Shown one piece after another: positions 21,239 to 55,960 of a DNA stretch of 64,000 bases; positions within the stretch are counted from its first letter, which is position 1; every line of letters begins with the position of its first letter. Location: positions 11,473-75,472 of the forward strand of contig DASYQZ010000046.1 of NCBI GenBank assembly GCA_036004865.1. The letters are read 5' to 3'. The notes beneath the pieces are model-generated. The model did no database searches, had not been told where the DNA came from, and saw only the letters and a list, made by a program, of their open reading frames with translations. A program made the position numbers and the translations under genes. Origin of the DNA: Vicinamibacterales bacterium (GTDB taxonomy: Bacteria; Acidobacteriota; Vicinamibacteria; Vicinamibacterales; CAVVIG01).

Positions 21239-23200
<1,962 letters not shown>

Positions 23201-33582: not shown

Positions 33583-36192
33583 TCAGGATCCCGGGTTCTC
33601 AGTCAGGATCGTCGCGTCGTTCTGACGAGGACCCGGCGGCGTGCTCAGATACGTGTTCGGGCTGAGCACGATTTGATCGACGATGGCGCCGTCCTCGCGT
33701 TGCTGAATCCGCAGCGTGTGCGTCCCTGTCGCGGCGAAGAACACGTCGACGCCGGCCGCGCCCCATCCATTGTCGGCCCAGCCCCAACCCTGATCCGCCG
33801 TACCGCTCGGACCATTCTGCAGGATGACCTCCGCGGAGCTCGTGGATCCGATCTGCATGGTCGACCCGCCGGATGAATTGACCGAGTCGCTGAACTGCAC
33901 GTGCACCGAGTCGTTCGAGAACGAATCGTTCTGCGCGCGCAATCGCACCCAGAGGTGATACGGGATGCCGGCGGTGGCGCTGAACGTCAGCTCGACGTAG
34001 CTCGCCGGATTCGCGATCGCGGGTGAAATCTTCGGCTGCGCCGCATCGGGATTCCAGGTGGCTGATCCGCTCGCGGCGGACGCGTCCGTCAGCAGTTGCC
34101 ACGCCGTGCCGACCATGCCCGACGGCGGCGCATGCGCCGTCCACAGGACGATCGTCGGATCGCCCGGCGGTGGAGGCGGCGGGGGCGGGGGTGGCGGCGG
34201 CGAGCTCGATCCGTCGTTCTCGGGCAAGATCGTCGAATCGTTGTCGCGCGGCCCCGGCGCGTTCGAGAGGTACGTGTCGGGACTCAGGACGATCTCGTCG
34301 ACGATCGCGCCGTCCTCGCGTTGCTGCACGCGAACCGTCTGCTCGCCGTCGGCAGCAAAGTAGATGTTCGAGCCGGGCGCGCCCCATCCGTTGTCCGCCC
34401 ATCCCCATCCGTTGTCCGATGGATCGCTCGTACCGTTCTGCAGCACGACCTCGGCCGAGCTCGTCGTGCCGATGCGCCACGTCGCCGTGCCGAGCGAGTC
34501 TACCGATCCGCTGAACTGGAGATGGACCGAGTCGTTGCCGAGCGAGTTGCTCTGCGCGCGCAGACGCACCCACACGTGATACGCGACACCGTGGAACGCG
34601 ACGAACGTCCGCTCGAAGTAATTCGTGGGATTCGCCAGCGCGGGCGAAATCTTCGATTGCCCCTGGTCTGGATTGTGGAGCGCGGCGCCGCCGGATGCGC
34701 TCGCGTCGGAGAGCAGCATCCAGTTGCCGTGCAGGTTGCCGGCCGACGTGTTCGACGACCAGAGAACGATCGTCGTCGCGCCCGACGGCGGCGGTGGCGG
34801 CGGCGGCGGCTCGCCGGTGGTGGTGAAGCTCCAGATGTCGCCGGTCTTCGTGAGGTTCGCGGCGGTTCGCGACACGATCTTCCAGTAGTACGTCGCACCC
34901 GACGTCAGCGTGGGCAGCGCGAAGGTCTGATTCTCCGACGTCGTTTCGCTGGGCCCGAGCGGCTGATTCGCCGCGAAGAGCGGCGGATTGGGATTGGTGC
35001 CGAAGTAAATGTCGTACGTGTGCGCCCACGGTCCGCCGGACCACGTCAGGGTCTGCCCGGTGGTCGGGACGCCGACCGCGCCGTTCGCGATCGAGATGTT
35101 CGACGGCTTGTCGGGCGGCAGCGGCACGAACGGCTGCGATTCGACGAAGCCGCCCGGCGCCGTGTTGTTCCACTTCCGCTCGAACTGATCCACGAACCAG
35201 GTGAAGATCCAGCTCTTGGTCGTGAAGTAGTTGTGCTCCTGCTGAGAGTTCGCCGACGGCGACGTCCAGTTCGACGACCCGAAGATCGTGAGGCCTTGCG
35301 AGTAGAGCAGAACCACCTTCTCGTGATTCTGGCCGTCGCTGGCGCGTACCCGCATCGGGATGCCGGCCGCGTACATCCGATCCATGTTCCACGAGACCCA
35401 GAGCCGATCGACGTCGCGGTACTCGACGGTCTCGCCCAGGTAGCGGACCGGAATGCCGCGCGCCTGGGCCGCAATCATCGCGTCGCTGTGCCGCTTGTCG
35501 GTGATGCGGTACATGATCACGTCGATCTTCTGCGTCTCGGCGTTGTATTTCTTCACCGCGCGGGTCGCGTAGTCCTGCCCCGGCGGGAAATTCATGTCGG
35601 CGCTGATCGTGAACGTCGGATAGACGCGCACGCGCGAGGTGACGTTCGCGTACGGGCTGTAGTTGACCGTGTCGGTCCACAGATCGTCGAATTTGGTCTT
35701 GAAGCTGTCGACGATCGCCGGATCGTCCTCGAAGAAAATCGTCTCCGACACGTAATTGCTGTACGGCGCGACGGGCACGAATGCGTTGTCGCTGTAGTTG
35801 GCCGATCCGAACTCGACGACGTTCTGGCCGGCGAACAGCATCGTCTTCCAGTGCATGATGCCGCCGGCGGTCTTCTTCATCATCGGAATGCCGGCGTTCT
35901 GCAACTCGTTGAGGCTCGTGGCATTCAACGGATACGTCGGATTGGCTCTCGGGTCGACGATGAGCCGCACGGGGACGCCGGCCCGCTTGCGCGCGATGAG
36001 CTCGTTGACGTAGCGCTGGTCCTCCATGAACCAGAAGCCGACGTCGATGCCGGCGGTTTCGGCGCGGATGAGATTGATGAGCGGCGTCCGGCAATCCTGG
36101 AACGATGAATCGCAGAGGCTTTCCGCGGCGTGTGCAGGCGCCGCGACGGCCAACACGAACGCGAAAACAATCGATAAATTGAGCTTTTGCAC
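33583..36192 (-). CDS. Secreted PLD-like (two HKD) enzyme with an Fn3-like domain and two tandem C-terminal modules of about 195 aa
   Basis: Signal peptide MQKLNLSIVFAFVLAVAAPAHA. HKD-like motifs HWKTMLF and HEKVVLLYS..GSSNW. YYWKI..WSFTT is Fn3-like. Two poly-Pro linkers are each followed by a homologous module (..WVRLRAQ..NDSVH.QFS..GWGWADNGWGA..QQREDGAIVD.IVLSP). Confidence 0.75.
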   Translation of the reverse strand: MQKLNLSIVFAFVLAVAAPAHAAESLCDSSFQDCRTPLINLIRAETAGIDVGFWFMEDQRYVNELIARKRAGVPVRLIVDPRANPTYPLNATSLNELQNAGIPMMKKTAGGIMHWKTMLFAGQNVVEFGSANYSDNAFVPVAPYSNYVSETIFFEDDPAIVDSFKTKFDDLWTDTVNYSPYANVTSRVRVYPTFTISADMNFPPGQDYATRAVKKYNAETQKIDVIMYRITDKRHSDAMIAAQARGIPVRYLGETVEYRDVDRLWVSWNMDRMYAAGIPMRVRASDGQNHEKVVLLYSQGLTIFGSSNWTSPSANSQQEHNYFTTKSWIFTWFVDQFERKWNNTAPGGFVESQPFVPLPPDKPSNISIANGAVGVPTTGQTLTWSGGPWAHTYDIYFGTNPNPPLFAANQPLGPSETTSENQTFALPTLTSGATYYWKIVSRTAANLTKTGDIWSFTTTGEPPPPPPPPSGATTIVLWSSNTSAGNLHGNWMLLSDASASGGAALHNPDQGQSKISPALANPTNYFERTFVAFHGVAYHVWVRLRAQSNSLGNDSVHLQFSGSVDSLGTATWRIGTTSSAEVVLQNGTSDPSDNGWGWADNGWGAPGSNIYFAADGEQTVRVQQREDGAIVDEIVLSPDTYLSNAPGPRDNDSTILPENDGSSSPPPPPPPPPPPPGDPTIVLWTAHAPPSGMVGTAWQLLTDASAASGSATWNPDAAQPKISPAIANPASYVELTFSATAGIPYHLWVRLRAQNDSFSNDSVHVQFSDSVNSSGGSTMQIGSTSSAEVILQNGPSGTADQGWGWADNGWGAAGVDVFFAATGTHTLRIQQREDGAIVDQIVLSPNTYLSTPPGPRQNDATILTENPGS

Positions 36193-36336: not shown

Positions 36337-37374
36337 TTAGGTCGGCGCATAAGGCCCGAGGTTGACTTTTATTTCAGATTGCAACGGGCTCGACCGATGA
36401 GCCCGGCTGCCGCGCGCATACCCGGCGAAATAGCAGAGCATGGCTTCGTGACGCATGCGGCGCACGGCGTCGCGCGCCAGCCACGCGCTCAGCCAGCCGG
36501 ACAGGTCGCGGATCGCGGAGCCGACCATGAAGCGCGGCACGCCGGCGATTCGCGGCACGGTCGCCAGGTCGACGCCGAGCTCGGTGACCGGATGATGCCG
36601 ATCGAGCCGCGATCGCGCCACGCCTTTCCAGTACCACCACCTTCGAAAATAGTCGCGCGTCAGCCGCCGCGCGGGCACGTGGTGGTGCAGCGACATCCCG
36701 GGCACGTAGAGTCCGCGAGCGCCGATCGCGCGCGAACGGCAGAAGAACTCTGCCTGCTCCTGCCCGAGCAGGGAATTGCCGCGGCGGCCCAGCCCGGGAT
36801 CGAAACCGCCGATGCGATCGATCAGCTCGCGCCGCACCGCCATGTTCGCCCCAAGCGGGACGCGGCGGCGATCCTCGAACACGAACGGCTCGGGCCCGTA
36901 ATCCAGAATCGCGAGCGTGCCCCAGAGATCCGAGCGCGTTTCATCAAGCCAGGGCGGACATGGCCGTTCCCAGATCGGGCGAACTGGTCCGCCTGTGTAG
37001 TCGACACTCGCGTCGCCGGTCGCCGCCAGCATCGGCCGGCAGCCCGCTTCCAGCCAGTCCTCGTTCACGCGCACATCGTCGTCGGTGAACACGATGATCG
37101 CCGCGTCGCTTTCCGCGATCCCGGTGTTCAGCGCGTGCGACTTGCCCTGACGCGGCTCGAACACATACCGGAGCTCGACCGGATACCCGGCGATGCGCGA
37201 TTTGACGACGGCGGCCGTGTGATCCGTCGAGTTGTTGTCGACAACGATGACGTTCCAGCGCAAGCCGCCGCTGGTGCGGCTGAGCGCGAGGCTGTCGAGC
37301 GTCTCCGCGAGGAGATCGCCGCGGTTATAGGTGCAAATCAGGACGGTCGCGTCAAGCGGTCGAGCTACGGACAT
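36337..37374 (-). CDS. Glycosyltransferase family 2 (paralog a)
   Basis: VLICTYNRGDLL, VVDNNSTD and FTDDDV. About 45 percent identical by eye to 38213-39208. ATG 37374 is preferred over 37419. Confidence 0.8.
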   Translation of the reverse strand: MSVARPLDATVLICTYNRGDLLAETLDSLALSRTSGGLRWNVIVVDNNSTDHTAAVVKSRIAGYPVELRYVFEPRQGKSHALNTGIAESDAAIIVFTDDDVRVNEDWLEAGCRPMLAATGDASVDYTGGPVRPIWERPCPPWLDETRSDLWGTLAILDYGPEPFVFEDRRRVPLGANMAVRRELIDRIGGFDPGLGRRGNSLLGQEQAEFFCRSRAIGARGLYVPGMSLHHHVPARRLTRDYFRRWWYWKGVARSRLDRHHPVTELGVDLATVPRIAGVPRFMVGSAIRDLSGWLSAWLARDAVRRMRHEAMLCYFAGYARGSRAHRSSPLQSEIKVNLGPYAPT

Positions 37375-37389
37375 CGGCTGAGTAACGTT

Positions 37390-37404
37390 GCAAACGGCCT
37401 GCCT
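37390..37404 (-). promoter_or_regulatory. sigma-54-like box AGGCAGGCCGTTTGC
   Basis: GG-N10-GC with TTTGCA at -12. There are 15 nt to ATG 37374. The -24 half is imperfect. Confidence 0.35.
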
Positions 37405-37551
37405 GATGGGGACGGGCAATCATTGTGCTCAGGCAGCTATCGTGAGCGTCAGACCCACACATTTCGGCAGGCACGATGAGGGCGCGATTCTTCTTTTTCA
37501 CTCTGCGCGGGGGCCCACCCGGCCGAAGCCTTCGCGCTCGAACGACTCGAA

Positions 37552-38166: not shown

Positions 38167-38212
38167 ATGGTCATTTTAGATGACCATCCTGGCGGGACGC
38201 AACCGACGCCGA

Positions 38213-39208
38213 TCAACCGGCTGCCAGACGCGTCGTCGGCGCGATGGCGCGCTGGCGATCGCGCCAGCGCTGCTTCACGACGCCGGCGAAGAAGCAGAGC
38301 CACAGCTCGCGATCGAAGCTGGCGATCGGATCGCCTTTGATCGCGGCGGCGATGGACTCCTTCAGCGCCTTCACGGCGCTGCGGAACATGTAGCGCGGGA
38401 CGCCGGCGATGTGCGGCACCGCGGAGAAATCGAGCGTCGTCTGTTCCGGCTTCTCCATGTCGAGGCCGGTCTCGGCGTAGAGCATCGCCCGGCTGATGCC
38501 GCGCCAGTAGAACCAGCGCCGGAAGTACTGCTTCGTCAGCCGATCGGCCGGAATGATGTGCTGCACGACGAGGTCGGGAATGTAGAAGCCGGTGAGGCCC
38601 GCGGCGTGCGCGCGCAGGCACCACTCGCGCACTTCCTGACCGAGCAGCGTCCCGGCCTTGCGTCCGATGCGAGGATCGAACCCGCCGACGCGATCGATCG
38701 CCGACTTCCGCATCGCCATGTTGACGCCGAGCGGCACGCGCTTGCCGAACTGGAGGGGCGCCCGTCCGTAGTCGAGCAGCGCGATGACCGCCCAGAGCTG
38801 ACCGTTGGTCTTCGGCAGCCAGCGCGGCGGCTCGGCGCCCCACAGCGGCAGCACGCGGCCGCCGACGTAGTCGCACTGCTCGGACGCGAGACCGGCCTCG
38901 ATCCGGTTCAACCAATCCGGCTCGACGCGGACGTCGTCGTCGGTCGTCACGATGATGTCGCCCTGTGCGAGGCGGAAGCCGCAGTTGAGCGCCGCGCTGC
39001 GTCCCTGTTCGCGCTCGAAGGCATATCGCAGCGGGACCGGAAATGCCGGCATGGCGCGTTCGACGATCTCACGCGTGCTGTCCGGCGAGTTGTTGTCGAT
39101 GACGATCACTTCCCACGGCGCGCGCGGCTGCAGACGAGCGAGACTGGCGAGCGTGTCGCCGAGCATCGCCGCGCGGTTGTAGGTCGCGATGAGGATCGAG
39201 AAGGTCAT
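38213..39208 (-). CDS. Glycosyltransferase family 2 (paralog b)
   Basis: FSILIATYNRAAML, VIDNNSPD and TTDDDV. The track ORF has a spurious N-terminal extension to 39550. Confidence 0.8.
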   Translation of the reverse strand: MTFSILIATYNRAAMLGDTLASLARLQPRAPWEVIVIDNNSPDSTREIVERAMPAFPVPLRYAFEREQGRSAALNCGFRLAQGDIIVTTDDDVRVEPDWLNRIEAGLASEQCDYVGGRVLPLWGAEPPRWLPKTNGQLWAVIALLDYGRAPLQFGKRVPLGVNMAMRKSAIDRVGGFDPRIGRKAGTLLGQEVREWCLRAHAAGLTGFYIPDLVVQHIIPADRLTKQYFRRWFYWRGISRAMLYAETGLDMEKPEQTTLDFSAVPHIAGVPRYMFRSAVKALKESIAAAIKGDPIASFDRELWLCFFAGVVKQRWRDRQRAIAPTTRLAAG

Positions 39209-39215
39209 GCTGGCC

Positions 39216-40469
39216 TCACGTGTGGCGCAGCCGCCTGCGCGCGGCTTCGGCGTGCCTCGCCGTAGCTCGCCCGGACCGCGAGCGAGCGGAGGCGGGCGCC
39301 CTGCGTCGTGCGCCGGACGCGGCCGTGAAGGGCTGCGCCGCATCCGCCCGGAGATCGAGCAGCTCGTACACCATGGTGAGCGCGCGCTCGGTCGCGGTGC
39401 CCGGCTCGTAGAACATGTCGCGGACGACAGCATGGCGCGCGGCCGAGAGGCGCTCGCGGTGATCGATCTCGTCGAGCGCGGCCGGACCCGCGTCCTCGGC
39501 GGTGCGCACGACGCGCGCGGCGCTGCGGAGCAGCGCGATTTTGTCGGCACTGATCCGCGCGACGCGCGCGAGATCGGGTGCGTCGAATACGACGAGCGGC
39601 CGATCGAGCAGGCAGAACTCGAAGCCGATGGAGCTGTGGTCGGTCACCATGACGTCGCTGGCGGCGAGGAGCGGCGACGAGTCGGCCCACTCGACGAACG
39701 CGATGCGGCCCGGCCGGTGGAGCTGCGCGAAGCGGGCGCGCCAGTCGATGCCGCCGCTGAACTTCTCGTCCGACAGGTCGAGCGACCGGTCGTGCAGCTT
39801 CACGATGACGTTGAAGCCGGCGTTCACGAGGCTGGTGACGATGGCTTCGCCGGCGAGATGCAGCGATGAGGCCGGCGACCACGTCGGCGCGTAGATCGCC
39901 GTCGGCCGGTGCATTTCGAGCTGCAGCCGCGAATGGACCGCGGCCGCATCGTATCGACCGTTCACCAGCGAATCCACCTTCGGATAGCCGACGAGGACCG
40001 CGGCGTCGCGCCGCACGATGCCGGCGTCGACGTAGCGCCGCAGGCGGTCCGCGTTGACGAATGCGACGCGATCGTAGAGGTCGAAGCCAATCGGCAGGTG
40101 CGACGGCGAGTCGAGATCGTACTTGCCCGCCATGCCGTGGAAGAAGTTCGCGCGGCGGCGGCACCGCCGCAGCCGAATGGGATCCCACGGATCGGCCGAC
40201 AGGCAGAGATCGATTCGCCGCCAGGCCATCGCGGCTCTCGAATGGATCTTCGCCTGAATGCCGGACGCCGCCGCCGCCTCGCCGAGGGCGGCGGGGCGAT
40301 CGGCGCAAAAGACCACGTCGATCCGCGGATCGCGCTGCAGACGTTCGACGATCGGGCCGAGAATCGCGAAGTTCATCGCCGTCCGGGCATCGACCACCAC
40401 GCGGCGGCGGCCGCTGAGCCGCGCGAGCGCGGCATCGACGCGGCGAAACCCGGTGCCGATCCAACTCAT
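39216..40469 (-). CDS. CDP-alcohol (glycerol/ribitol) phosphotransferase, TagB/TagF family, paralog 1
   Basis: FFHGMAGKY (catalytic His region), IYAPTWSP and VMVTDHSSIGFEFCLLDRPLVVF. Confidence 0.75.
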   Translation of the reverse strand: MSWIGTGFRRVDAALARLSGRRRVVVDARTAMNFAILGPIVERLQRDPRIDVVFCADRPAALGEAAAASGIQAKIHSRAAMAWRRIDLCLSADPWDPIRLRRCRRRANFFHGMAGKYDLDSPSHLPIGFDLYDRVAFVNADRLRRYVDAGIVRRDAAVLVGYPKVDSLVNGRYDAAAVHSRLQLEMHRPTAIYAPTWSPASSLHLAGEAIVTSLVNAGFNVIVKLHDRSLDLSDEKFSGGIDWRARFAQLHRPGRIAFVEWADSSPLLAASDVMVTDHSSIGFEFCLLDRPLVVFDAPDLARVARISADKIALLRSAARVVRTAEDAGPAALDEIDHRERLSAARHAVVRDMFYEPGTATERALTMVYELLDLRADAAQPFTAASGARRRAPASARSRSGRATARHAEAARRRLRHT

Positions 40470-40482
40470 GGGTGACTGTGTC

Positions 40483-41478
40483 TCACTGCGTGGGGCCCCA
40501 CCGCCACGCCGACGTCCTCGCGACGCGCTCCGGCGCTCGCGGGGCTTCGCCTTCGCTCGCCTCGCTCACCGGTTCGCGCTCATGTGATTCACGGGCGCTG
40601 CGCTCGGACGCATCGAGCACAGAACGCCGCAGGGTCCGCCGCAGCCGGAGCAGCGCATCTCCCAGGACGGGCGCGCGCATCAGCAGGCGCTGTTTGCGTT
40701 CGATCGCCGCGATCTCCGCCTCGAACCGCGCGACCTGGCGATCGAGAATCGCGCGCTCGGGCAATCCGGCGGGCCCCGAACGCAACATCGGACGCGTCTT
40801 CGCATACACCCGCAGGATGCCGGTCAGCATGCGCGTGTCGCTCGACGACAGGCTGTCGGGACGGCAGGTGTACCAGCCGAGCGGCTTCGTGTGCCGAGTG
40901 AACCTGAATCCGGCCAGCGCGGCGCGGATCCACATCTCGTACTCCTCGTTCGTCAGCAGCGTCGGATCGAAACCGCCGACCGCGTCGACGACCTCGCGGC
41001 GGAACACGGTCATGATGAAGAGGCACGTCTCGTCGGCCAGGATCTCGGCGAGCGTGATCGGCAGCCCTTCGCCGCGTACGGGCCGCGACGGCAGGCCGTC
41101 GCGCGGTCCGCCGCGATTGCGCGCGTTGCCGATGACGACGTCGACGTCCGGTCGCGCGTCGAGGACGGCGACCTGTTCGGCCAGGAACGTGTCGTCCCAC
41201 TGATCGTCGCTGTCGAGGAACGCGAAGTAGCGTCCGGCGGCCGCGCGAAAGCCGGCGTTCCGCGCCGGACCGGGCCCGGCGTTGTTCTGCCGCAGCACCC
41301 GCACGCGCGGGTCGCGATCCGCGTACCACTCGCCAATCGCGACCGTCTCGTCCATCGATCCGTCGTCCACGATGAGCAGCTCGAGGTCGGCGAACGTCTG
41401 CCGCAGCACCGAGTCGATGGCCAGGTGCAGATACCGTTCCGCGTTGTACGCCGGCATGATGACGGAAACGGTCGGCAT
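40483..41478 (-). CDS. Glycosyltransferase family 2 (type c)
   Basis: VSVIMPAYNAERYL, LIVDDGSMD and LDSDD. The C-terminal tail is encoded by the GC-rich short repeat. Confidence 0.85.
   Translation of the reverse strand: MPTVSVIMPAYNAERYLHLAIDSVLRQTFADLELLIVDDGSMDETVAIGEWYADRDPRVRVLRQNNAGPGPARNAGFRAAAGRYFAFLDSDDQWDDTFLAEQVAVLDARPDVDVVIGNARNRGGPRDGLPSRPVRGEGLPITLAEILADETCLFIMTVFRREVVDAVGGFDPTLLTNEEYEMWIRAALAGFRFTRHTKPLGWYTCRPDSLSSSDTRMLTGILRVYAKTRPMLRSGPAGLPERAILDRQVARFEAEIAAIERKQRLLMRAPVLGDALLRLRRTLRRSVLDASERSARESHEREPVSEASEGEAPRAPERVARTSAWRWGPTQ
40529..40570. repeat. GC-rich short repeat GCTCGCGGGGC..TTCGCC..CGCTCG..CTCGCTCAC, copy 2
   Basis: About 40 nt similar to 1641-1685. It lies inside the 3' end of ORF 40483-41478 and reads VSEASEGEAPRAP. 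Confidence 0.45.
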
Positions 41479-41479
41479 A

Positions 41480-42631
41480 TCAGCGGCCGCCCGCCACGGG
41501 CTGAAGACCGTGCCTGACCTGTCGCGTGACGCCAGGGCTCGCAGGCCTGACGGGCTGCGCCAGATGCGCGGGTTGCAGGCCGATCGCCTCGTACAGCGCC
41601 GCGGCGCAGCGTGCGGTCGCCGTGCCGGGCTCGTGAAACAAGTCGGCGGCAATGGCGCGGCGCGTGGACGAAAGCGCGTCCGGATTCGCGAGCGCGCGCT
41701 CGACCGCAGCGATGGTGTCCTCGACGTCGCTCGTCGATTCCGAGACGCTGGCGAGCAGGCGGACGTAGTCGTCGTGGATGTTCGCCAGATCGATCAGTTC
41801 GGGCACATGGATGCGGACGAGCGGGCGATCGCGGAGCAGGTACTCGAATCCCGCCGAGCTGTGATCGGTGATCATCGCGTCGGCGGCGACGAGATACGGA
41901 CAGATGTCCGCACCGGGCGCCAGAATGGCGGAGCCCTTTTGCAGATGCGGGACCAGGGCCGCGCGCCAGTCGATGCCCCCGGAGTACTGCGGGCGCCGAT
42001 CGCACGAACGATCATGCAGCTTGACGATGATGTTGATCGGCAGTTGGCGCAGCCGTTCCACGAGATCGATGCCGACGCGGTTGAGCGACGAAGCGGGCGA
42101 CCAGGTTGGCGCGTAGAGGACGGTCGGCCGCTCGGGCGGCAGACCGATCGATCGCAGCACCGCATCGCGATCGAGGGAGCCGTCGACGAGGCAGTCGACC
42201 TTCGGCATGCCGATGAGCCGAATCGCGGGGCTGCCGGCGTCGACCGCGCCGGCGGCGACGCAGTTGTTCAGCCGCCGCGCGTTGACGAAGAAGAGGCGGT
42301 CCCACGCGCGCAGCGAGTCGGTCGGCGCATCGAAGCCGTACTTGCCGCCGACGCCGTGAAACATCTGGATGCGGCACGTCTCGAGGAGCAGCCGCGCCCA
42401 CATGAAGTCGGAGGTCAGATACGCGTCGAACTTCGTGACGGCCGCGCGCGCCGGTCCGATGACGCGCGCGCCGGGTCCCGCGTCGCGGAAGATGCGGCCG
42501 GCGTTCGACGGTTCCTCGCTCGCGACGAAGAAGAACCGCACGCGGTCGTCCTCGTCCATCGCCGCGTGCACGGGCGCGAACATCGTGTAGTGCACCGGCG
42601 TCCGCGCATCGACCAATACTCGTTTCATCAT
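41480..42631 (-). CDS. CDP-alcohol phosphotransferase, TagB/TagF family, paralog 2
   Basis: MFHGVGGKY, LYAPTWSP and AMITDHSSAGFEYLLRDRPLV. Confidence 0.75.
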   Translation of the reverse strand: MMKRVLVDARTPVHYTMFAPVHAAMDEDDRVRFFFVASEEPSNAGRIFRDAGPGARVIGPARAAVTKFDAYLTSDFMWARLLLETCRIQMFHGVGGKYGFDAPTDSLRAWDRLFFVNARRLNNCVAAGAVDAGSPAIRLIGMPKVDCLVDGSLDRDAVLRSIGLPPERPTVLYAPTWSPASSLNRVGIDLVERLRQLPINIIVKLHDRSCDRRPQYSGGIDWRAALVPHLQKGSAILAPGADICPYLVAADAMITDHSSAGFEYLLRDRPLVRIHVPELIDLANIHDDYVRLLASVSESTSDVEDTIAAVERALANPDALSSTRRAIAADLFHEPGTATARCAAALYEAIGLQPAHLAQPVRPASPGVTRQVRHGLQPVAGGR

Positions 42632-42648: not shown

Positions 42649-44148
42649 CTACGCATGAACTCGAATCAGCGTCGGCACGGTCTTCGATTCCGATTCGACC
42701 GCGTCTTCTGCCGCCGCCGCCGCCTCGGCCCGGCGGCTCGCGACGATTTCGCGTCCCGCCACTGCGAGCGCGAGCACGTAATAGAAGGTCCAGTTGAAGG
42801 CGACCGACGCGAAGAACGAGCAGACGGTCCAGCCGACGATCGCCGCCATCATCCCCTTCGCGTTCATGTCGAGGATGACGCGCTCGGTGTCGGTCATCAT
42901 CAGAGGGTCGGCCTCCGCCTCGGTGTCGGCCTTCGCCGCCCGCGAGGGCCCTGCGGTGCGCTTCTTCCTTGGCAGTCTGAGCATGCGCAAGGCCCGGAAG
43001 CTCGCCGAGTACGCGCGGACGACGAGGAACGAAAACACGATCAACCCGAAGATGCCGAGCTCGGCGGCGACCTGAAGCCACACGTTGTGCGTCACGCGCC
43101 ACTTCTCGATGACGCCCGGCGCGTTGTAGTTCTGGAACTGACCCGCGCCGATGCCGGTCACCGGGTTGTCCGCGAAGACCTCCATGCCCTGATTCAGCAG
43201 CCGCACGCGCGCGGCGCGCGATCCGGTCGGATCGGTGTCGGCGTTCGTGATGCTGTCCATGCGGTTCCAGAACGAATCGGGCATCACGGGCAGCGCCAGC
43301 AGGCCGGCGACGACGATGGCGAGAATGACGCCGGGCTTCACCCGCGCGGTGTAGTAGACGACCACGAGGCCCATCGCCACGAGGCCGAGGAAGCCGCTGC
43401 GCGATTTGGTCGCCACGGTCGCGGCGAGCATCAGCGCGGCGAGCAGGGAGGCGAACAGCCGCCTCGAGGTCTTGCCGTCCTGGATGATGATGAACAGCGT
43501 CGGCGCGAGGAACGTGACGAGGTTCAGCGCGAGATCGTTCGGGTTCTCGAACATGCCGCCGACCGCGCCGCGCAGGCGATCGCCCTCGACGAGGTTCACG
43601 CCCCGGAGATAGTCGAAGACGCCGCGGCCGGCGATGTAGCCCGAGGCGATGATCATGATCCACGTCATCTGCCGCACGCGGCGCGGCGAGGTGATCGTGC
43701 TGATCATCAGCGCGAAGATCAGGATGATTTTCACGTAGATGTCGCTGAACACCTTCAGCGATCCGCTGGGCCAGATCGACAACGGGATCGTCAGCACGAT
43801 GACGCCGCCCAGCAGAATCACGCCGATGACTTCGGCGTTGACCTTCGCGACCGTCTGCCCTGCGCGCAGACGCCGCACCGCCATCGCGGCGAGGCCGGCG
43901 ATGGCCGTCAATTCGGCGAGATGCAGCGATTCGAGCGCCTGCAGGTGATCCTGCGGGCGGAAGAAGAGCAGCGTGGTGAACGCCAGCATCCAGAGGTAGT
44001 CCCAGTCGTAGCGCTCGCGCGTCGCCGCGAGGTGCTTCTTGATCCGCGCGAGCCGCGAAACCGGCCCCGCTGCCTTCGGCATCGTTCTGCCGGAGACGAC
44101 AACCGGGCCGCTGCGCGGCGATCCGACGTTGAAGGTTAGGCGCTCCAT
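42649..44148 (-). CDS. O-antigen ligase/Wzy-like polysaccharide polymerase (multi-pass membrane)
   Basis: At least 10 hydrophobic helices. THNVWLQVAAELGIFG resembles the Wzy_C/O-antigen-ligase loop. The start is uncertain (44148 or 44082). Confidence 0.7.
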   Translation of the reverse strand: MERLTFNVGSPRSGPVVVSGRTMPKAAGPVSRLARIKKHLAATRERYDWDYLWMLAFTTLLFFRPQDHLQALESLHLAELTAIAGLAAMAVRRLRAGQTVAKVNAEVIGVILLGGVIVLTIPLSIWPSGSLKVFSDIYVKIILIFALMISTITSPRRVRQMTWIMIIASGYIAGRGVFDYLRGVNLVEGDRLRGAVGGMFENPNDLALNLVTFLAPTLFIIIQDGKTSRRLFASLLAALMLAATVATKSRSGFLGLVAMGLVVVYYTARVKPGVILAIVVAGLLALPVMPDSFWNRMDSITNADTDPTGSRAARVRLLNQGMEVFADNPVTGIGAGQFQNYNAPGVIEKWRVTHNVWLQVAAELGIFGLIVFSFLVVRAYSASFRALRMLRLPRKKRTAGPSRAAKADTEAEADPLMMTDTERVILDMNAKGMMAAIVGWTVCSFFASVAFNWTFYYVLALAVAGREIVASRRAEAAAAAEDAVESESKTVPTLIRVHA

Positions 44149-44158: not shown

Positions 44159-44272
44159 TCATCTCCACACTCTGCGGCCGCGCGCGGCGGCGAACAGCCC
44201 CGCGACCGCGGCGTAGTTCATGAGCACGAACGTGTACGCGACCTTCGCGAGGCGCACGAAGCAGCGCGACAT
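44159..44272 (-). CDS. 37-aa hydrophobic ORF resembling the detached C-terminal helix of the upstream GT2
   Basis: MSRCFVRLAKVAYTFVLMNYAAVAGLFAAARGRRVWR. Its ATG overlaps the GT2 stop (TGATG). From memory, homologous membrane GT2 proteins end with ..YF.LMN.AA..G......VW. Confidence 0.4.
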   Translation of the reverse strand: MSRCFVRLAKVAYTFVLMNYAAVAGLFAAARGRRVWR

Positions 44273-45456
44273 CACGCCACCCTCTGCGCCGGCACCGGCA
44301 GCGCGGCGAATTTCCCATCGGCGATGCGTCCGCGGTATTCGATGAGCGCGCCGCACCCCGCCAGCAGGAAGAGGCCGACCTGTCCGCCCAGCACGAGGGC
44401 GTAGAACAGGTGATCGACGGCGAGCACGACGCTCGCGCAGAACATCGTGAGCATCGCGTAGGGCACCACGAGACGGCCAATCTTGTGCGACAGGTACTGC
44501 AGCCAGACGCGGTTGCGCCACGGCAGCAGCAGCCGCGGCTCGAGCGCGAGAATCTGATAGTTGCCGGCGAGCGTCCGCACCTTGCGCCGCGCCTCGGCGT
44601 CGGCGTCGACCGCCGCGCGATCGAAGGCGCGCGCGCGCTCGTTGAACACGACGCGAAATCCCGCCAGCACCACGCGCATCGGCGTCATGACGTCGTCCAG
44701 CACCGTGTCGGCCGGCAGCGGCTGAAACAGCGAGCGGCGCATCGCGTAAATGGCGCCCGTGGCGCCCAGCGTCGAGTCGATCGCGCTCTCGAGCCGCCGA
44801 ATCTGCTTCTCGTATTTCCAGTACAGCCCGACGCCGTCGGCGATGGTGGATCGCACGGTCCGGCGCCGATCGTCGATCCGGCGATCGCTGCCATCATCGC
44901 GCGCCACCTGCCGCCGCTCGAACGCCCGGCGGTCGCGGCCGGCGCGGCGGCAGGGCGACTCGGCGTCGAGCAACAGCTCGCCGGTGACCGCGCCCACGGC
45001 CGGATCGCTGAGCGGCGCGACGAGCTCGACGAGCGCGTCGGACGCGAACACCTGCCGCGCGTCCGCGAAGACGATCACGCCGAATCTGGCCCGCGCGACG
45101 CCGGCGTTCAACGCGAGCGCTTTGCCGCTCGCCGGAATCGTCACGGCGTCGACCAGGCCGTCATAGCGCGCGAGCACGTCGACCGTGTTGTCCGTCGATC
45201 CGTCGGAGACGACGACGATCTGCCGGCGGTCGGCCGGATAGTCGAGCGCCAGGAGATTCTCGATGCGGGCGGAGAGCCGCGAACCTTCGTTGCGCGCCGC
45301 GATGACAATCGACACGCCGGGCCAATCGTCAATCAATCCGCAATCCGCAATCCGCAATCCGCAGTGTCGCGCTCGTGCCCAAACGCGGAGCATCAACGGA
45401 TACCCCGCGTAGACGTAGGCGACCACCGCGATCGAGAGCCAGAACAGCAGTGTCAT
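44272..45456 (-). CDS. Membrane-anchored glycosyltransferase family 2
   Basis: N-terminal TM helix, VSIVIAARNEGSRL, VVSDGSTDNT and C-terminal TM helices. A CGGATTG half-array (HCGLRIADCGLIDDWP) sits between the TM helix and the GT domain. Confidence 0.8.
   Translation of the reverse strand: MTLLFWLSIAVVAYVYAGYPLMLRVWARARHCGLRIADCGLIDDWPGVSIVIAARNEGSRLSARIENLLALDYPADRRQIVVVSDGSTDNTVDVLARYDGLVDAVTIPASGKALALNAGVARARFGVIVFADARQVFASDALVELVAPLSDPAVGAVTGELLLDAESPCRRAGRDRRAFERRQVARDDGSDRRIDDRRRTVRSTIADGVGLYWKYEKQIRRLESAIDSTLGATGAIYAMRRSLFQPLPADTVLDDVMTPMRVVLAGFRVVFNERARAFDRAAVDADAEARRKVRTLAGNYQILALEPRLLLPWRNRVWLQYLSHKIGRLVVPYAMLTMFCASVVLAVDHLFYALVLGGQVGLFLLAGCGALIEYRGRIADGKFAALPVPAQRVA
45323..45366. 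repeat. CGGATTG-family half-element inside a CDS
   Basis: CAATCGTCAATCAATCCGCAATCCGCAATCCGCAATCCGCAGTG. No partner arm lies nearby. It is in frame in the GT2 ORF. Confidence 0.8.
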
Positions 45457-45462
45457 CGTCCT

Positions 45463-48170: not shown

Positions 48171-49010
48171 TTACTCGCCGGCTGCGCGAGGCAACGCGGC
48201 AACGTCGCCGGCGAGGGGCGGACACGCGGGTCCGCCCCTACCAAACAGCGCGTTGTCTGCGACTCTTGTAGGGGCCGACCCACGTGTCGGCCCTTCGAAT
48301 TCCTCGATCGCGGGCAAGACGTCGTGGATCGCGCGCTCGTAATCCTCGGGGAAGTCAATTTCCGTCCAGGGATATCCGCGCGTGCCAATCACGTGCAGCG
48401 GCCGCCGCTGCGCGAAGTCGCCGAACGCTCTCGGCGCCCAGTCCCGCAGGTGGCCGCCGGCGACCCGCTCGTCCAGCAGCCGGCTCAGCAGCCGGGCGCC
48501 GTCGCCGCCGAACTTGACGATGCCGAGGTTCTCGCCGTCGGTGTCCTCGGGCGCGAGCGTCTTCGCGATGTCGACGACGCAGCCGCGCCGGACTTTGATC
48601 TTCATTTCCTCATCCGTGAACGGGCCGTCGCTGTACGCCATCAGCAGCGCGTCGGCGTGCCGCGCGGTCACCAGGTCCTCGAGCAGCTGCGGATGGAAGA
48701 GCACGTCACAGTTCATCACGACGAAACCGTCGAGCAGCAGAGGCCGTGCCAGCCAGAGCGAATACAGACTGTTCGTCTGCGCGAACCGCGTGTTCTCGAC
48801 GTAGGTGAGCCCGTGCCCACACGTGCGCCGTACGCGCTCGGCCTGGCAGCCGACGACGACGGCGATGTCGTCGATGCCTACCGCGCGCAAGGAATCGATT
48901 TGCCGTTCCACCAAGGTGCGATCGCCGACACGCAGCAGGCATTTGGGCTTGTCGCCAAGCGTCCCGTTCAAGCGCGACCCTTTGCCCGCCGCGAGAATGA
49001 TCCCGCGCAT
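48171..49010 (-). CDS. Nucleotidyltransferase (LicC/MobA-like, probable cytidylyltransferase)
   Basis: GIILAAGKGSRL signature with a GGAGG Shine-Dalgarno sequence. The last 45 aa or so run through two REP-like hairpins. Confidence 0.7.
   Translation of the reverse strand: MRGIILAAGKGSRLNGTLGDKPKCLLRVGDRTLVERQIDSLRAVGIDDIAVVVGCQAERVRRTCGHGLTYVENTRFAQTNSLYSLWLARPLLLDGFVVMNCDVLFHPQLLEDLVTARHADALLMAYSDGPFTDEEMKIKVRRGCVVDIAKTLAPEDTDGENLGIVKFGGDGARLLSRLLDERVAGGHLRDWAPRAFGDFAQRRPLHVIGTRGYPWTEIDFPEDYERAIHDVLPAIEEFEGPTRGSAPTRVADNALFGRGGPACPPLAGDVAALPRAAGE
48214..48239. repeat. REP-like hairpin (GTAGGGGCGGACCCGCGTGTCCGCCCC on the minus strand)
   Basis: The stem AGGGGCGGAC / GTCCGCCCCT has a 6-nt loop. 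It is inverted relative to the 48271-48293 copy. Confidence 0.7.
48271..48293. repeat. REP-like hairpin (GTAGGGGCCGACCCACGTGTCGGCCC on the plus strand)
   Basis: Stem GGGGCCGAC / GTCGGCCC. It pairs with 48214-48239 as an inverted doublet. Confidence 0.7.
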
Positions 49011-53146: not shown

Positions 53147-53162
53147 CTTCGTATCCTCTCGT

Positions 53163-53271: not shown

Positions 53272-53277
53272 TCGCTG

Positions 53278-55958: not shown

Positions 55959-55960
55959 AC

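What the first reader, a model, noticed from the sequence alone, without database searches (positions are those of the whole stretch)
38213..42631. Duplicated GT2 plus TagF-like module suggests a teichoic-acid-like polyol-phosphate polymer in a diderm EPS locus
The gene order is GT2-b, TagF-like 1, GT2-c, TagF-like 2. Both TagF-like proteins carry the FHG.GGKY, YAPTWSP and TDHSS..FE motifs of CDP-glycerol/ribitol phosphotransferases.

The same locus encodes a LicC/MobA-like nucleotidyltransferase (48171-49010) that could make a CDP-activated donor. No TagD-type (HxGH) cytidylyltransferase is visible.

Between GT genes sit two secreted enzymes from phosphodiesterase-capable superfamilies: the EEP protein (32066-33490) and the PLD-like protein (33583-36192). 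Together these suggest that phosphodiester-linked units are built into, and possibly trimmed from, the exported polymer. That would be unusual for a Wzx/Wzy plus Wza pathway.
Basis: inference. Interest (0 to 1): 0.7.

Follow-up and report, generated by a model that had tools for sequence, protein, structure and literature searches.

The report
Polyol-phosphate transferases in acidobacterial EPS locus
A soil acidobacterium's slime-polysaccharide gene cluster holds two intact teichoic-acid-type phosphotransferases paired with sugar transferases, so its exported polysaccharide probably carries phosphate-linked glycerol-like units; this is known chemistry in a new lineage, with an undescribed link to exported phosphate-cleaving enzymes.

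Summary
Four tightly packed minus-strand genes lie at 38213-42631: GT2b, TagF-like 1, GT2c, TagF-like 2. Both TagF-like proteins pass Pfam PF04464 and keep both catalytic histidines of TagF. The TagF1 model matches TagF best by fold.

- The locus is a Wzx/Wzy_C/PCP/OPX locus of XrtA/PEP-CTERM type from a Vicinamibacterales acidobacterium. It has no TagD, TagO or ABC exporter.
- The likeliest product is a heteropolysaccharide repeat unit with one or two phosphodiester-linked polyol phosphates, probably glycerol phosphate. A poly(polyol-phosphate) teichoic acid is unlikely.
- A conserved LicC-type cytidylyltransferase is the probable donor synthase.
- The module was not duplicated as a unit. TagF1/TagF2 are 40% identical and GT2b/GT2c only 29%; GT2b's paralogue is GT2a.
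- It is not unusual for Wzx/Wzy. E. coli O antigens and pneumococcal capsules already show polyol phosphates.

New here:
- A relative fuses GT2c and TagF1 orthologues.
- Exported PLD-like or EEP genes accompany the TagF-like gene in 18 of 18 informative relatives.
- Some relatives tether TagF-like domains through one membrane helix to EEP or phytase domains.

Verdict: new variant of a known kind, moderate interest.

The parts
41480..42631 (-). TagF-like 2 (383 aa), predicted CDP-polyol:acceptor polyol-phosphate transferase. It is the first of the four genes in transcription order.
   Evidence: PF04464 52.0 bits against a cutoff of 22.1. It is 40% identical to TagF1. H92 (MFHGVGGKY) and H206 (VKLHD) sit at the positions that align to TagF H444 and H584 in the paralogue. 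An orthologue lies upstream of TagF1 in 29 of 35 informative loci.
40483..41478 (-). GT2c (331 aa), GT-A family 2 glycosyltransferase and predicted partner of TagF1.
   Evidence: PF00535 126.8 bits. P0361 (721 aa) is a natural fusion of a GT2c orthologue (69% identity) and a TagF1 orthologue (57% identity), in the same order as these adjacent genes.
39216..40469 (-). TagF-like 1 (417 aa; residues 379-417 are predicted disordered), predicted CDP-polyol:acceptor polyol-phosphate transferase.
   Evidence: PF04464 59.7 bits. hhalign against a Firmicute TagF profile gives 97.2% probability, with H111 aligned to TagF H444 and H226 aligned to TagF H584. The AF2 model has pLDDT 84 and pTM 0.81. Foldseek's best PDB hits are TagF 3L7x at E 3e-13 and TM about 0.6, then Cps3D, Bcs3 and TarL.
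38213..39208 (-). GT2b (331 aa), GT-A family 2 glycosyltransferase and paralogue of GT2a.
   Evidence: PF00535 102.5 bits. It is 45% identical to GT2a and 29% to GT2c. P0372 fuses a GT2b-like domain (39% identity) to a TagF2-like domain (51% identity).
36337..37419 (-). GT2a (360 aa), part of the conserved sub-block GT2b/GT2a-PLD-EEP.
   Evidence: PF00535 85.3 bits. It is conserved next to the PLD-like gene in relatives and in the reduced cassette of L074 and L076.
33583..36192 (-). Secreted PLD-superfamily protein (869 aa): signal peptide, two HxK...GSxN motifs (H114, H290), Pro-rich linkers and two GH115_C-like beta-sandwich modules.
   Evidence: PF13091 112 bits with two stretches, and PF17829 34.6 bits. 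N-terminus and motifs were read. The closest solved relatives are Nuc and Zucchini/MitoPLD. A PLD-like gene is present in 16 of 22 loci with at least 5.5 kb downstream of TagF1.
32066..33490 (+). Secreted EEP-family protein (474 aa): signal peptide, CBM96/DNRLRE module and an endonuclease/exonuclease/phosphatase domain.
   Evidence: PF03372 73.5 bits and PF24517 53.1 bits. The signal peptide is MRKDVSRVCARAMFGVVVFAASVSAVAA|Q. Some EEP gene is present in 17 of 18 loci with at least 7.5 kb downstream of TagF1.
48171..49010 (-). LicC-type nucleotidyltransferase (279 aa), the probable CTP:alcohol-phosphate cytidylyltransferase that makes the CDP donor.
   Evidence: PF12804 69.6 bits. Best solved relatives are LicC 1JYK at E 3e-14, PntC 6PD1 at 1e-10 and IPCT 2XME at 2.5e-5. 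It is present in 11 of 14 loci with at least 9.7 kb upstream. Two of the three misses stop at the adjacent AAA22 gene and the third is the reduced cassette L076. Starting from its homologues leads back to loci with Glyphos_transf genes.
42649..44148 (-). Wzy_C-family membrane protein (499 aa): repeat-unit polymerase, or possibly an O-linking ligase.
   Evidence: PF04932 82.8 bits. The best NCBIfam hit is TIGR03097, the exosortase-A-associated putative O-glycosylation ligase, at 104 bits against a cutoff of 188. It lies immediately upstream of TagF2 in 22 of 23 informative loci.
49075..50808 (-). Wzx-type MOP flippase. The true start is probably downstream of 50808, because this ORF overlaps the 3' end of the PGT gene.
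   Evidence: PF13440 and PF01943; best NCBIfam hit is the MOP flippase family (NF007773, 46.4 bits, below its cutoff of 273).
50649..52022 (-). Initiating polyprenyl-phosphate hexose-1-phosphate transferase (Bac_transf).
   Evidence: TIGR03013, the XrtA/PEP-CTERM system glycosyltransferase, scores 491.4 bits against a cutoff of 393. PF02397 scores 231 bits.
52157..56597 (-). Export block: tyrosine autokinase (52157-53146), chain-length determinant (53278-54873), TIGR03016-like outer-membrane protein (54750-55982) and Wza-like OPX (55995-56597).
   Evidence: Best NCBIfam hits are the XrtA-associated families TIGR03018, TIGR03007, TIGR03016 and TIGR03027. Pfam finds Wzz/GNVR and Poly_export/SLBB.
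44272..48158 (-). Conserved genes between the LicC-like gene and Wzy_C: membrane GT2d (44272-45456), NDP-sugar dehydrogenase (45463-46977) and XrtA/PEP-CTERM-associated ATPase (46848-48158).
   Evidence: The order is conserved in relatives.

Best explanation
The four genes are the variable, serotype-like part of a Wzx/Wzy_C-dependent exopolysaccharide locus of XrtA/PEP-CTERM type in a Vicinamibacterales acidobacterium.

Proposed mechanism:
- TagF1 and TagF2 are active cytoplasmic TagF-family phosphotransferases.
- Each transfers one alcohol phosphate from a CDP-activated donor onto a hydroxyl of the undecaprenyl-diphosphate-linked repeat unit, forming a phosphodiester. The alcohol phosphate is most simply sn-glycerol 3-phosphate.
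- The donor is made by the conserved in-locus LicC-type cytidylyltransferase from a central-metabolism alcohol phosphate.
- The interleaved GT2 enzymes work with them, GT2c with TagF1. They most likely glycosylate the newly added polyol or supply its acceptor sugar, so the repeat unit carries one or two in-chain or side-chain phosphodiesters.
- The finished unit is flipped by Wzx, polymerised or ligated by the Wzy_C protein, and exported by the PCP/OPX proteins.
- After export, the secreted EEP and PLD-like enzymes probably act on the phosphodiester-containing polymer by trimming, cleaving or remobilising it.

Shown: family membership, intact catalytic residues, TagF-like fold, conserved synteny and the fusions. 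Inferred: the donor's identity, single versus repeated addition, the acceptor, and the EEP and PLD substrates.
For: TagF-family identity:
- PF04464 scores are above cutoff for both proteins.
- Both catalytic His residues align to TagF H444 and H584. The hhalign probability is 97.2%. TagF numbering was verified by counting. The role of these residues is from PMC5974469.
- Both His residues are invariant in 20 family members.
- The TagF1 model is confident, and TagF is its best PDB fold match.

Donor synthesis:
- The in-locus nucleotidyltransferase is LicC-like and closer to alcohol-phosphate cytidylyltransferases than to sugar-1-phosphate enzymes.
- It is conserved in the same block.
- No kinase, reductase or PEP-mutase gene that another CDP-alcohol pathway would need was found in the window.

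Pathway type:
- The locus has a PGT of TIGR03013 type above cutoff, a Wzx, a Wzy_C protein and PCP/OPX proteins, and no ABC exporter.

GT2 coupling:
- P0361 fuses orthologues of GT2c and TagF1. P0372, P0364 and P0367 are similar fusions.

Serotype-like variation:
- The number of TagF-like genes varies from 1 (L089) to 2 (the window) to 3 (L005).

Phosphoesterase link:
- PLD-like or EEP genes are present in 18 of 18 informative loci.
- A reduced GT2-TagF-PLD-EEP cassette lies outside any EPS locus.
- TagF-TM-EEP and TagF-TM-phytase fusions exist.
Against: - No chemistry or enzymology exists for this clade.
- The LicC family's characterised substrates are phosphocholine, 2-aminoethylphosphonate, phosphoglutamine and inositol phosphate. 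I found no characterised LicC-fold glycerol-3-phosphate cytidylyltransferase with these tools. The usual enzyme, TagD, is absent from the window but could be encoded elsewhere in the genome.
- All comparative evidence comes from one clade (TagF1 identity 51-97%), so co-occurrence counts are not phylogenetically independent.
- The closest solved relatives of the PLD-like and EEP proteins are nucleases.
- The EEP hit in the P0031 and P0032 fusions is below Pfam's cutoff (18.9-20.3 bits against 24.5).
- The window itself lacks the short lipoprotein EEP that many relatives carry.
- The Wzy_C protein may be a ligase rather than a polymerase.
Confidence: 0.6

Rival explanations
1. A true teichoic-acid-like polymer. 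TagF1 and TagF2 act processively with the GT2 enzymes, like the multi-domain TagF-like capsule polymerases. They would build a long poly(glycosyl-polyol-phosphate) chain on a lipid primer, and that chain is the exported polymer.
For: The alternating TagF/GT2 order and the natural GT2-TagF, TagF-GT4, TagF-2xGT2 and GT2-2xTagF fusions resemble the GT + TagF-like architecture of Cps1B, Cps3D and Cps7D (PMC5974469). Cps3D and Bcs3 are among the best fold matches.
Against: No ABC transporter (TagGH or KpsMT type), no TPR domain and no TagO/TagA/TagB-type priming genes were found in the window. The locus instead has a Wzx flippase and a Wzy_C protein directly adjacent to TagF2 in 22 of 23 informative loci, which implies short lipid-linked units. 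The proteins are about 380 aa core-only enzymes, like the single-addition TagB and TarF enzymes (own knowledge), and lack TagF's long N-terminal domain.
Confidence: 0.12
2. The phosphotransfer chemistry is the same but the alcohol is different. The LicC-like enzyme makes a CDP-alcohol other than CDP-glycerol, for example CDP-ribitol, CDP-inositol or CDP-2-glycerol, and the TagF-like enzymes install that group.
For: The nucleotidyltransferase resembles LicC, PntC and inositol-1-phosphate cytidylyltransferases (NCBIfam IPCT/DIPPS at 65 bits) and not TagD. Different annotation sources name its homologues differently: choline kinase, phosphocholine cytidylyltransferase or L-glutamine-phosphate cytidylyltransferase. 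TagF-family enzymes also use CDP-ribitol, as in TarL 8VA1. The fused or co-located phosphoesterase folds (EEP, beta-propeller phytase) both include inositol-phosphate-acting members (own knowledge).
Against: No reductase (TarJ-like), kinase (LicA-like), inositol-phosphate synthase or PEP-mutase gene is in the window. Known phosphocholine and phosphonate transfer uses LicD-type transferases, not TagF-type (own knowledge).
Confidence: 0.2
3. The EEP and PLD-like proteins are unrelated to the phosphodiester chemistry. They would be secreted nucleases or phosphatases, for example for extracellular DNA turnover in the matrix or for phosphate scavenging, that merely sit in the locus.
For: The closest solved relatives are the Nuc endonuclease and Zucchini/MitoPLD for the PLD-like protein, and a generic EEP for the other. 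The NCBIfam best hit for the PLD-like protein is nuclease NucT. A second small PLD-like gene lies elsewhere in the window at 664-1611.
Against: They carry carbohydrate-binding-type modules (CBM96; GH115_C-like) rather than nucleic-acid-binding ones. They travel with a TagF-like gene even in a reduced cassette outside any EPS locus. EEP and phytase domains are fused to TagF-like domains through a membrane helix in relatives.
Confidence: 0.25
4. The glycan is not a free EPS. It would be an oligosaccharide transferred en bloc onto PEP-CTERM or other surface proteins or lipids by the Wzy_C-family protein acting as an O-linking ligase.
For: The best NCBIfam match of the Wzy_C protein is TIGR03097, 'putative O-glycosylation ligase, exosortase A system-associated', and TfpM also hits. 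The locus is of XrtA/PEP-CTERM type.
Against: The TIGR03097 score is below its cutoff (104 against 188). A full PCP (Wzz/GNVR + tyrosine kinase) and OPX export set is present, which argues for a high-molecular-weight polymer. No exosortase gene was found in the window.
Confidence: 0.1

Closest known systems
Polyol-phosphate-containing polysaccharides made by repeat-unit pathways: E. coli O antigens with glycerol phosphate (the O-antigen review PMC7685785 cites papers on O28ab, O29, O33, O37, O100 and O130) or ribitol phosphate (O118, O151), and pneumococcal capsules with glycerol-1-P, glycerol-2-P, arabinitol-P or mannitol-P (PMC1391919)
   Same: The repeat unit is built on a lipid carrier from an initiating phosphoglycosyl transferase. 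A CDP-activated polyol donor is made by an in-locus cytidylyltransferase. A dedicated polyol-phosphate transferase sits among ordinary glycosyltransferases. A Wzx flippase and a Wzy_C-family protein are present.
   Different: The lineage is different (Acidobacteriota, Vicinamibacterales) and the export context is XrtA/PEP-CTERM type. The nucleotidyltransferase is LicC-type rather than TagD/Gct or TarI type. There are two paralogous TagF-like genes interleaved with GT2 genes, varying from 1 to 3 between relatives. Exported EEP and PLD-like enzymes are conserved partners. That the cited E. coli serogroups are Wzx/Wzy-dependent is my own knowledge and was not checked per serogroup.
TagF-like capsule polymerases of Gram-negative group 2 capsules: Cps1B, Cps3D, Cps7D, Bcs3 and C. 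jejuni HS:1 (PMC5974469, PMC10299916, PMC11924219)
   Same: A TagF-like domain with the two catalytic His residues works with a glycosyltransferase domain in a diderm. Relatives of the window proteins occur as GT2-TagF fusions. Cps3D and Bcs3 are strong fold matches.
   Different: Those enzymes are large multi-domain processive polymerases, mostly with TPR domains. They act on a glycolipid primer in ABC-transporter-dependent pathways and use TagD-type donor synthesis. Here the genes are separate, about 330-420 aa each, and sit in a Wzx/Wzy_C locus with no ABC transporter.
Gram-positive wall teichoic acid enzymes TagB, TagF, TarF and TarL
   Same: Same Pfam family, same fold and same catalytic histidines.
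   Different: Sequence identity is only 14-18% in the structural alignments. The TarF equivalog model scores 34 and 16 bits against a cutoff of 550. No TagO, TagA, TagD or TagGH genes were found, and the organism is a diderm.
XrtA/PEP-CTERM exopolysaccharide loci, defined by the TIGR03013-TIGR03109 family set
   Same: The initiating transferase scores above its cutoff. The ATPase is at its cutoff. The amidotransferases, tyrosine kinase, chain-length determinant, OPX, outer-membrane protein and stp1/stp2-type GT4s are all best hits to the XrtA-associated families. Two sigma-54 response regulators also match the XrtA-associated PEP-CTERM-box regulator family, but rank third behind AtoC and NtrC.
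   Different: Most scores fall below the equivalog cutoffs, so this is a divergent acidobacterial version. No exosortase gene lies in the window. I know of no description of TagF-like, LicC-like, EEP or PLD genes as part of this locus type, and literature searches found none.

Membership tests
TagF-like / Glyphos_transf family (PF04464) | Significant match to the family HMM above the curated gathering score | tested here: met
   59.7 bits (TagF1) and 52.0 bits (TagF2) against a cutoff of 22.1.
TagF-like / Glyphos_transf family (PF04464) | The two conserved catalytic histidines, equivalent to S. epidermidis TagF H444 and H584 | tested here: met
   hhalign at 97.2% probability aligns TagF1 H111 to H444 (FFHG/TWHG) and H226 to H584 (VKLHD/LRMHY). 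TagF numbering was checked by counting. TagF2 has H92 and H206 in the same motifs. Both are invariant in 20 homologues. Their catalytic role is from PMC5974469.
TagF-like / Glyphos_transf family (PF04464) | GT-B-like two-Rossmann-domain fold closest to TagF | tested here: met
   The TagF1 AF2 model has pLDDT 84 and pTM 0.81. Foldseek's top hits are TagF 3L7M, 3L7K and 3L7J at E about 1e-12 to 3e-13 and TM about 0.6, followed by Cps3D, Bcs3 and TarL. TagF2 was not modelled.
TagF-like / Glyphos_transf family (PF04464) | CDP-glycerol- or CDP-ribitol-dependent polyol-phosphate transfer with CMP release | not testable with these tools
   This needs an enzyme assay.
TarF/TagB/TagF orthologues (NCBIfam equivalogs) | Score above the equivalog cutoff | tested here: not met
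   NF041712 (TarF) scores 34.4 and 15.6 bits against a cutoff of 550. These are family members, not orthologues of any named teichoic acid enzyme.
Wall teichoic acid pathway (Gram-positive type) | TagD-type cytidylyltransferase, TagO/TagA priming enzymes and a TagGH ABC exporter in the system | tested here: not met
   None was found among about 60 scanned window ORFs or by a TagD motif scan. The initiating enzyme is Bac_transf/TIGR03013. Genes elsewhere in the genome cannot be excluded.
TagF-like capsule polymerases (group 2, ABC-dependent) | A multi-domain polymerase (TagF-like + GT, with or without TPR) in a KpsMT/KpsCS-type locus | tested here: not met
   The window's genes are separate and no ABC transporter or TPR domain was found. 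GT2-TagF fusions do exist in relatives.
Wzx/Wzy-dependent polyol-phosphate-containing heteropolysaccharide | Initiating PGT, Wzx flippase and a Wzy-family protein in the same locus as the polyol-phosphate transferase | tested here: met
   The order is conserved in relatives. Caveat: the Wzy_C protein could be a ligase.
Wzx/Wzy-dependent polyol-phosphate-containing heteropolysaccharide | An in-locus enzyme that makes the CDP-polyol donor | tested here: inconclusive
   A LicC-type cytidylyltransferase is present and conserved, but its substrate is unknown and no TagD or TarI gene is present.
Wzx/Wzy-dependent polyol-phosphate-containing heteropolysaccharide | Phosphodiester-linked polyol in the purified polymer | not testable with these tools
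   This needs 31P-NMR, HF treatment and composition analysis.
XrtA/PEP-CTERM EPS system | System-specific marker families above their cutoffs | tested here: inconclusive
   TIGR03013 scores 491 against 393 (met). TIGR03015 scores 322.6 against 324.5 (borderline). TIGR03108, TIGR03018, TIGR03007, TIGR03027, TIGR03087 and TIGR03088 are best hits but below their cutoffs.
XrtA/PEP-CTERM EPS system | An exosortase XrtA gene | tested here: not met
   No exosortase-family hit was found in any window ORF scanned. It may lie outside the 64 kb window.
LicC-type CTP:alcohol-phosphate cytidylyltransferases | NTP_transf_3 fold with LicC as the closest characterised relative | tested here: met
   PF12804 scores 69.6 bits. 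1JYK (LicC) is the best solved relative at E 3e-14, ahead of sugar-1-phosphate nucleotidyltransferases at about 1e-5.

The most novel reading that the evidence does not exclude
The TagF-like transferases and the exported phosphoesterases (EEP, PLD-like and, in relatives, beta-propeller phytase) form an obligately coupled 'make-and-break' module. The cell builds phosphodiester bonds into its exopolysaccharide and keeps dedicated extracytoplasmic enzymes to cut or strip them. In some relatives those enzymes are tethered to the transferase through a single membrane helix. This would make the matrix of very abundant soil Acidobacteria a self-cleavable polymer, an extracellular phosphorus reserve, or both. 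The installed alcohol could also turn out to be something other than glycerol, such as inositol.
Probability: 0.25. Interest if true: 0.65.

Novelty: new variant of a known kind. Interest (0 to 1): 0.4.

Why it matters
Vicinamibacterales are among the most abundant soil bacteria, and this locus is common in soil metagenomes: more than 500 matching stretches in one capped scan. If their exopolysaccharide carries phosphodiester-linked polyols, it would be an anionic, phosphorus-containing matrix polymer. That bears on soil aggregation, cation binding and organic-phosphorus cycling.

The conserved pairing, and in relatives the fusion across the membrane, of TagF-like transferases with exported phosphoesterases has no description I could find. 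It gives a concrete hypothesis for what these orphan EEP and PLD proteins act on.

For glycobiology it adds a LicC-type enzyme as a candidate CDP-polyol synthase. It also adds natural GT2-TagF fusions outside pathogen capsules. The core chemistry itself is already well known, so the finding extends existing knowledge.

Tried and rejected
- Direct phmmer and profile searches of the PDB aligned only the YAPTW and TDxSS blocks. They misplaced or skipped the catalytic His regions. I solved this by fetching Firmicute TagF fragments, building profile A2 and running hhalign.
- Single-sequence AlphaFold of the secreted EEP protein failed (pLDDT 30). No fold-based subfamily assignment was possible, and the model was not used.
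- I first read the short EEP-only genes and the TagF-EEP fusion as a cytoplasmic phosphatase partner. I rejected this: the short EEPs have lipoprotein signal peptides, and the fusions have a hydrophobic helix between the domains.
- I looked for a remnant of the short EEP gene in the 37420-38212 gap and found none. The gap holds a VapBC-type pair instead.
- Literature searches for this system in Acidobacteria, Vicinamibacterales or PEP-CTERM loci found nothing relevant. Acinetobacter Pgt1 is a different, sulfatase-type family and not a useful precedent.
- The genome-contig scan with a single sequence returned only six close relatives. I therefore could not test distribution in named genomes outside this clade, or whether tagD, tarIJ or ino1 lie elsewhere in the genomes.
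- I considered pseudogenisation or chance ORFs and rejected it. Codon-position GC, tight packing, invariant motifs and conservation down to 51% identity all argue for functional genes.

Full report
**What is at the coordinates**

The window is about 66% G+C, so raw ORF lists are full of spurious frames. Third-codon-position GC resolves four real genes on the minus strand that fill 38213-42631 exactly:
- GT2b, 38213-39208, 331 aa
- TagF-like 1, 39216-40469, 417 aa
- GT2c, 40483-41478, 331 aa
- TagF-like 2, 41480-42631, 383 aa

The gaps between them are only 1-13 nt. Transcription order is TagF2, GT2c, TagF1, GT2b. Pfam gives PF04464 (Glyphos_transf) at 59.7 and 52.0 bits against a cutoff of 22.1, and PF00535 (GT2) at 102.5 and 126.8 bits. 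YAPTWSP and TDHSS..FE occur in both proteins. FHG.GGKY is literal in TagF2, while TagF1 reads FHGMAGKY.

**Is the module duplicated?**

Only in part. TagF1 and TagF2 are clear paralogues, 40% identical over 369 aa. GT2b and GT2c share just 29% over about 200 aa of GT-A core, which is ordinary for any two GT2 enzymes. GT2b's real paralogue is GT2a (36337-37419), at 45% over 318 aa. So this is two TagF paralogues interleaved with unrelated GT2s, not a tandem duplication of a GT2+TagF unit.

**Are the TagF-like proteins likely to be active?**

- Direct PDB searches aligned only the central blocks.
- I located TagF H584 by counting along the alignment to 3L7I. It falls in 'LLRMHY', and the 3L7M variant sequence has Ala there.
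- I located H444 by counting back in P0242, a close homologue of S. epidermidis TagF. It falls in 'TWHGTPLK'.
- A profile-profile alignment of the Vicinamibacterales family against Firmicute TagF sequences gave 97.2% probability. It places TagF1 H111 (FFHG) on H444 and H226 (VKLHD) on H584.
- TagF2 has H92 and H206 in the same motifs.
- Both histidines are invariant in 20 family members.
- The literature names these two residues as the catalytic pair of the family (PMC5974469).
- An AlphaFold model of TagF1 is confident (pLDDT 84, pTM 0.81). Its best PDB matches are TagF itself (E about 3e-13, TM about 0.6), then the TagF-like domains of the Gram-negative capsule polymerases Cps3D and Bcs3, then TarL.

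Family membership is therefore well supported. Orthology to any named teichoic acid enzyme is not: the TarF equivalog model scores 34 and 16 bits against a cutoff of 550.

**Context**

The nearest named relatives are from Vicinamibacterales, phylum Acidobacteriota. The surrounding locus encodes:
- a Bac_transf initiating transferase that passes the TIGR03013 (XrtA/PEP-CTERM system) cutoff
- a MOP flippase and a Wzy_C-family protein
- a Wzz/GNVR chain-length protein with a separate tyrosine kinase
- a Wza-like OPX and a TIGR03016-like outer-membrane protein
- the XrtA-associated ATPase, at its cutoff
- two XrtA-type amidotransferases, GT4s of stp1/stp2 type, a heparinase II/III-like protein and two sigma-54 response regulators

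No exosortase, ABC exporter, TagO/TagA, TagD, or TarI/TarJ gene is in the window. This is a divergent XrtA/PEP-CTERM-type, Wzx/Wzy_C-dependent EPS locus, not a teichoic acid pathway.

**The donor**

The gene at 48171-49010 has a LicC fold. Its best solved relative is CTP:phosphocholine cytidylyltransferase 1JYK (E 3e-14). Next come the phosphonate cytidylyltransferase PntC and inositol-1-phosphate cytidylyltransferases. Sugar-1-phosphate enzymes follow at about 1e-5.

This enzyme class makes CDP-activated alcohol phosphates, which is the donor type used by TagF-family enzymes. The gene sits in a conserved block, Wzx-LicC-ATPase-dehydrogenase-GT2d-Wzy_C-TagF2. It is present in 11 of 14 loci with at least 9.7 kb upstream of TagF1. 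Two of the three misses end at the neighbouring ATPase gene, and the third is the reduced cassette L076. Starting from its homologues leads back to loci with Glyphos_transf genes.

The window encodes no kinase, reductase, inositol-phosphate synthase or PEP mutase. The simplest substrate is therefore sn-glycerol-3-phosphate from central metabolism. That is an inference, and the LicC-type rather than TagD-type enzyme keeps other alcohols open.

**Comparative genomics**

I fetched 86 related loci, all from one clade with 51-84% TagF1 identity, mostly from soil metagenomes. The order Wzy_C-TagF2-GT2c-TagF1-GT2b-GT2a-PLD-EEP is conserved. Counts:

| Feature | Loci with it / informative loci |
|---|---|
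| TagF2 upstream of TagF1 | 29 / 35 |
| Wzy_C | 22 / 23 |
| PLD-like or EEP gene downstream | 18 / 18 |

The number of TagF-like genes varies: one in L089, two in the window, three in L005. That is typical of serotype-like variable regions. A reduced cassette, GT2-TagF-PLD-EEP, also occurs away from any EPS locus, flanked by housekeeping or adhesin genes (L074, L076, L077).

**Fusions**

An exhaustive HMM search found 302 representative clusters at E<=1e-30 and 4,983 at E<=1e-3. Among the closest:
- P0361 is a single protein made of a GT2c orthologue (69% identity) and a TagF1 orthologue (57% identity), in the same order as the adjacent window genes.
- P0372, P0364 and P0367 are similar GT2-TagF fusions.
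- Others fuse TagF-like domains to GT4, to a methyltransferase, or to further GT2 or TagF copies.

This is Rosetta-stone evidence that each TagF-like enzyme works with its neighbouring glycosyltransferase, as in the GT + TagF-like capsule polymerases of Gram-negative pathogens.

Two independent fusions have the layout TagF-like domain, one hydrophobic helix, then a phosphoesterase domain:
- P0031 and P0032 carry an EEP domain. The hit is weak and below Pfam's cutoff, but the ORF is uninterrupted in L087.
- P0448 carries a beta-propeller phytase domain at 208 bits.

Many relatives also carry short EEP-only genes next to the TagF genes. These have lipoprotein signal peptides. The window lacks this short EEP.

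**The two secreted enzymes**

Both window proteins have signal-peptide-like N-termini.
- The EEP protein carries a CBM96/DNRLRE module.
- The PLD-like protein has two HxK...GSxN motifs, Pro-rich linkers and two GH115_C-like modules.

Their closest solved relatives are nucleases, so a secreted-nuclease role is a genuine rival. The carbohydrate-binding modules, the reduced cassette and the fusions favour a link to the phosphodiester-containing glycan. It remains inference.

**Most likely mechanism**

1. The LicC-type enzyme makes a CDP-alcohol, probably CDP-glycerol.
2. At the cytoplasmic face, TagF2 and TagF1 each add one alcohol phosphate to the undecaprenyl-PP-linked repeat unit.
3. GT2c and GT2b act in alternation with them.
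4. Wzx flips the unit, the Wzy_C protein polymerises (or ligates) it, and the PCP/OPX proteins export it.
5. Exported EEP and PLD enzymes act on the phosphodiester-bearing polymer.

Shown: family, catalytic residues, fold, synteny and fusions. Inferred: donor, acceptor, stoichiometry and the phosphoesterase substrates.

**Comparison with what is known**

- TagF-like enzymes in diderms are established for ABC-transporter-dependent capsules (PMC5974469, PMC10299916).
- The E. coli O-antigen literature includes glycerol-phosphate-containing O-polysaccharides, one called 'teichoic-acid like' (O29), and ribitol-phosphate-containing ones (PMC7685785).
- Wzy-polymerised pneumococcal capsules carry polyol phosphates made from CDP-activated donors (PMC1391919).
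- The claim that this would be unusual for a Wzx/Wzy pathway therefore does not hold.
- NCBI already labels the Vicinamibacterales homologues 'CDP-glycerol glycerophosphotransferase family protein'.
- I found no description of the following: this module in Acidobacteria or in XrtA/PEP-CTERM-type loci, a LicC-type rather than TagD-type donor enzyme beside TagF-like genes, or the conserved and sometimes fused partnership with exported phosphoesterases.

**Verdict**

This is a real feature with correct family calls and a partly correct interpretation. It is a new variant of a known kind, of moderate interest (0.4). The most novel surviving reading is an obligately coupled synthesis-and-cleavage module for a phosphodiester-containing matrix polymer in abundant soil bacteria. 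I give it about 25% probability. It would deserve about 0.65 interest if true.

Noticed in passing
window 37552-38170 (minus strand): A VapBC-type toxin-antitoxin pair is inserted inside the EPS cluster between GT2b and GT2a. The PIN-domain toxin lies at 37552-37938 (PF01850, 52.6 bits). A small upstream ORF, 'MARYNIAQAKTKFSELVDKAMAGEEVIIARHH...', resembles an antitoxin. In many relatives this same spot holds a short lipoprotein EEP gene instead, and no remnant of that gene is left here.
   Followed up: partly
L087 5785-7914 (P0032); P0031; P0448: These proteins have the layout TagF-like domain, one membrane helix, then an exported phosphoesterase domain: EEP in P0031 and P0032, beta-propeller phytase in P0448. 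A cytoplasmic phosphotransferase appears to be tethered to a periplasmic phosphoesterase. I found no description of this architecture.
   Followed up: partly
L074 2314-8928; L076 7875-15380; L077: A reduced cassette, GT2(-GT2)-TagF-like-PLD-like-EEP, occurs outside any Wzx/Wzy locus. It is flanked by housekeeping genes (AMP-binding enzyme, PfkB kinase, acyl-CoA dehydrogenase) or by a giant Big_9/cadherin-repeat adhesin.
   Followed up: partly
window 5968-9701 (minus strand): Sulfate-assimilation-type genes lie upstream of the polysaccharide genes: two PAPS_reduct/CysD-like ORFs and a TauE/SafE exporter-family gene. Whether they relate to EPS sulfation is unknown.
   Followed up: no
window 664-1611 (+): A second, small (315 aa) PLD-like protein with two PLDc_2 stretches lies far from the EPS locus, next to two radical-SAM genes.
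   Followed up: no
window 21264-22907 (minus strand): A 547-aa ORF inside the polysaccharide region, between a stp1-type GT4 and an XrtA-type amidotransferase, has no Pfam or NCBIfam match and no hydrophobic segments. Its coding status was not confirmed by GC3.
   Followed up: partly
window 56610-57089 (minus strand): A small (159 aa) degenerate GGDEF-like protein sits between the Wza-like exporter gene and the sigma-54 response regulators. It is conserved at the same position in L088 and L089 and could be a c-di-GMP-related regulator of the locus.
   Followed up: no
PDB entry 3L7M (fold search output): The entry title says 'TagF, H548A'. By counting, the 3L7M sequence has Ala at position 584, where 3L7I and 3L7J have His ('RMHY' becomes 'RMAY'). 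The title appears to contain a digit transposition.
   Followed up: partly
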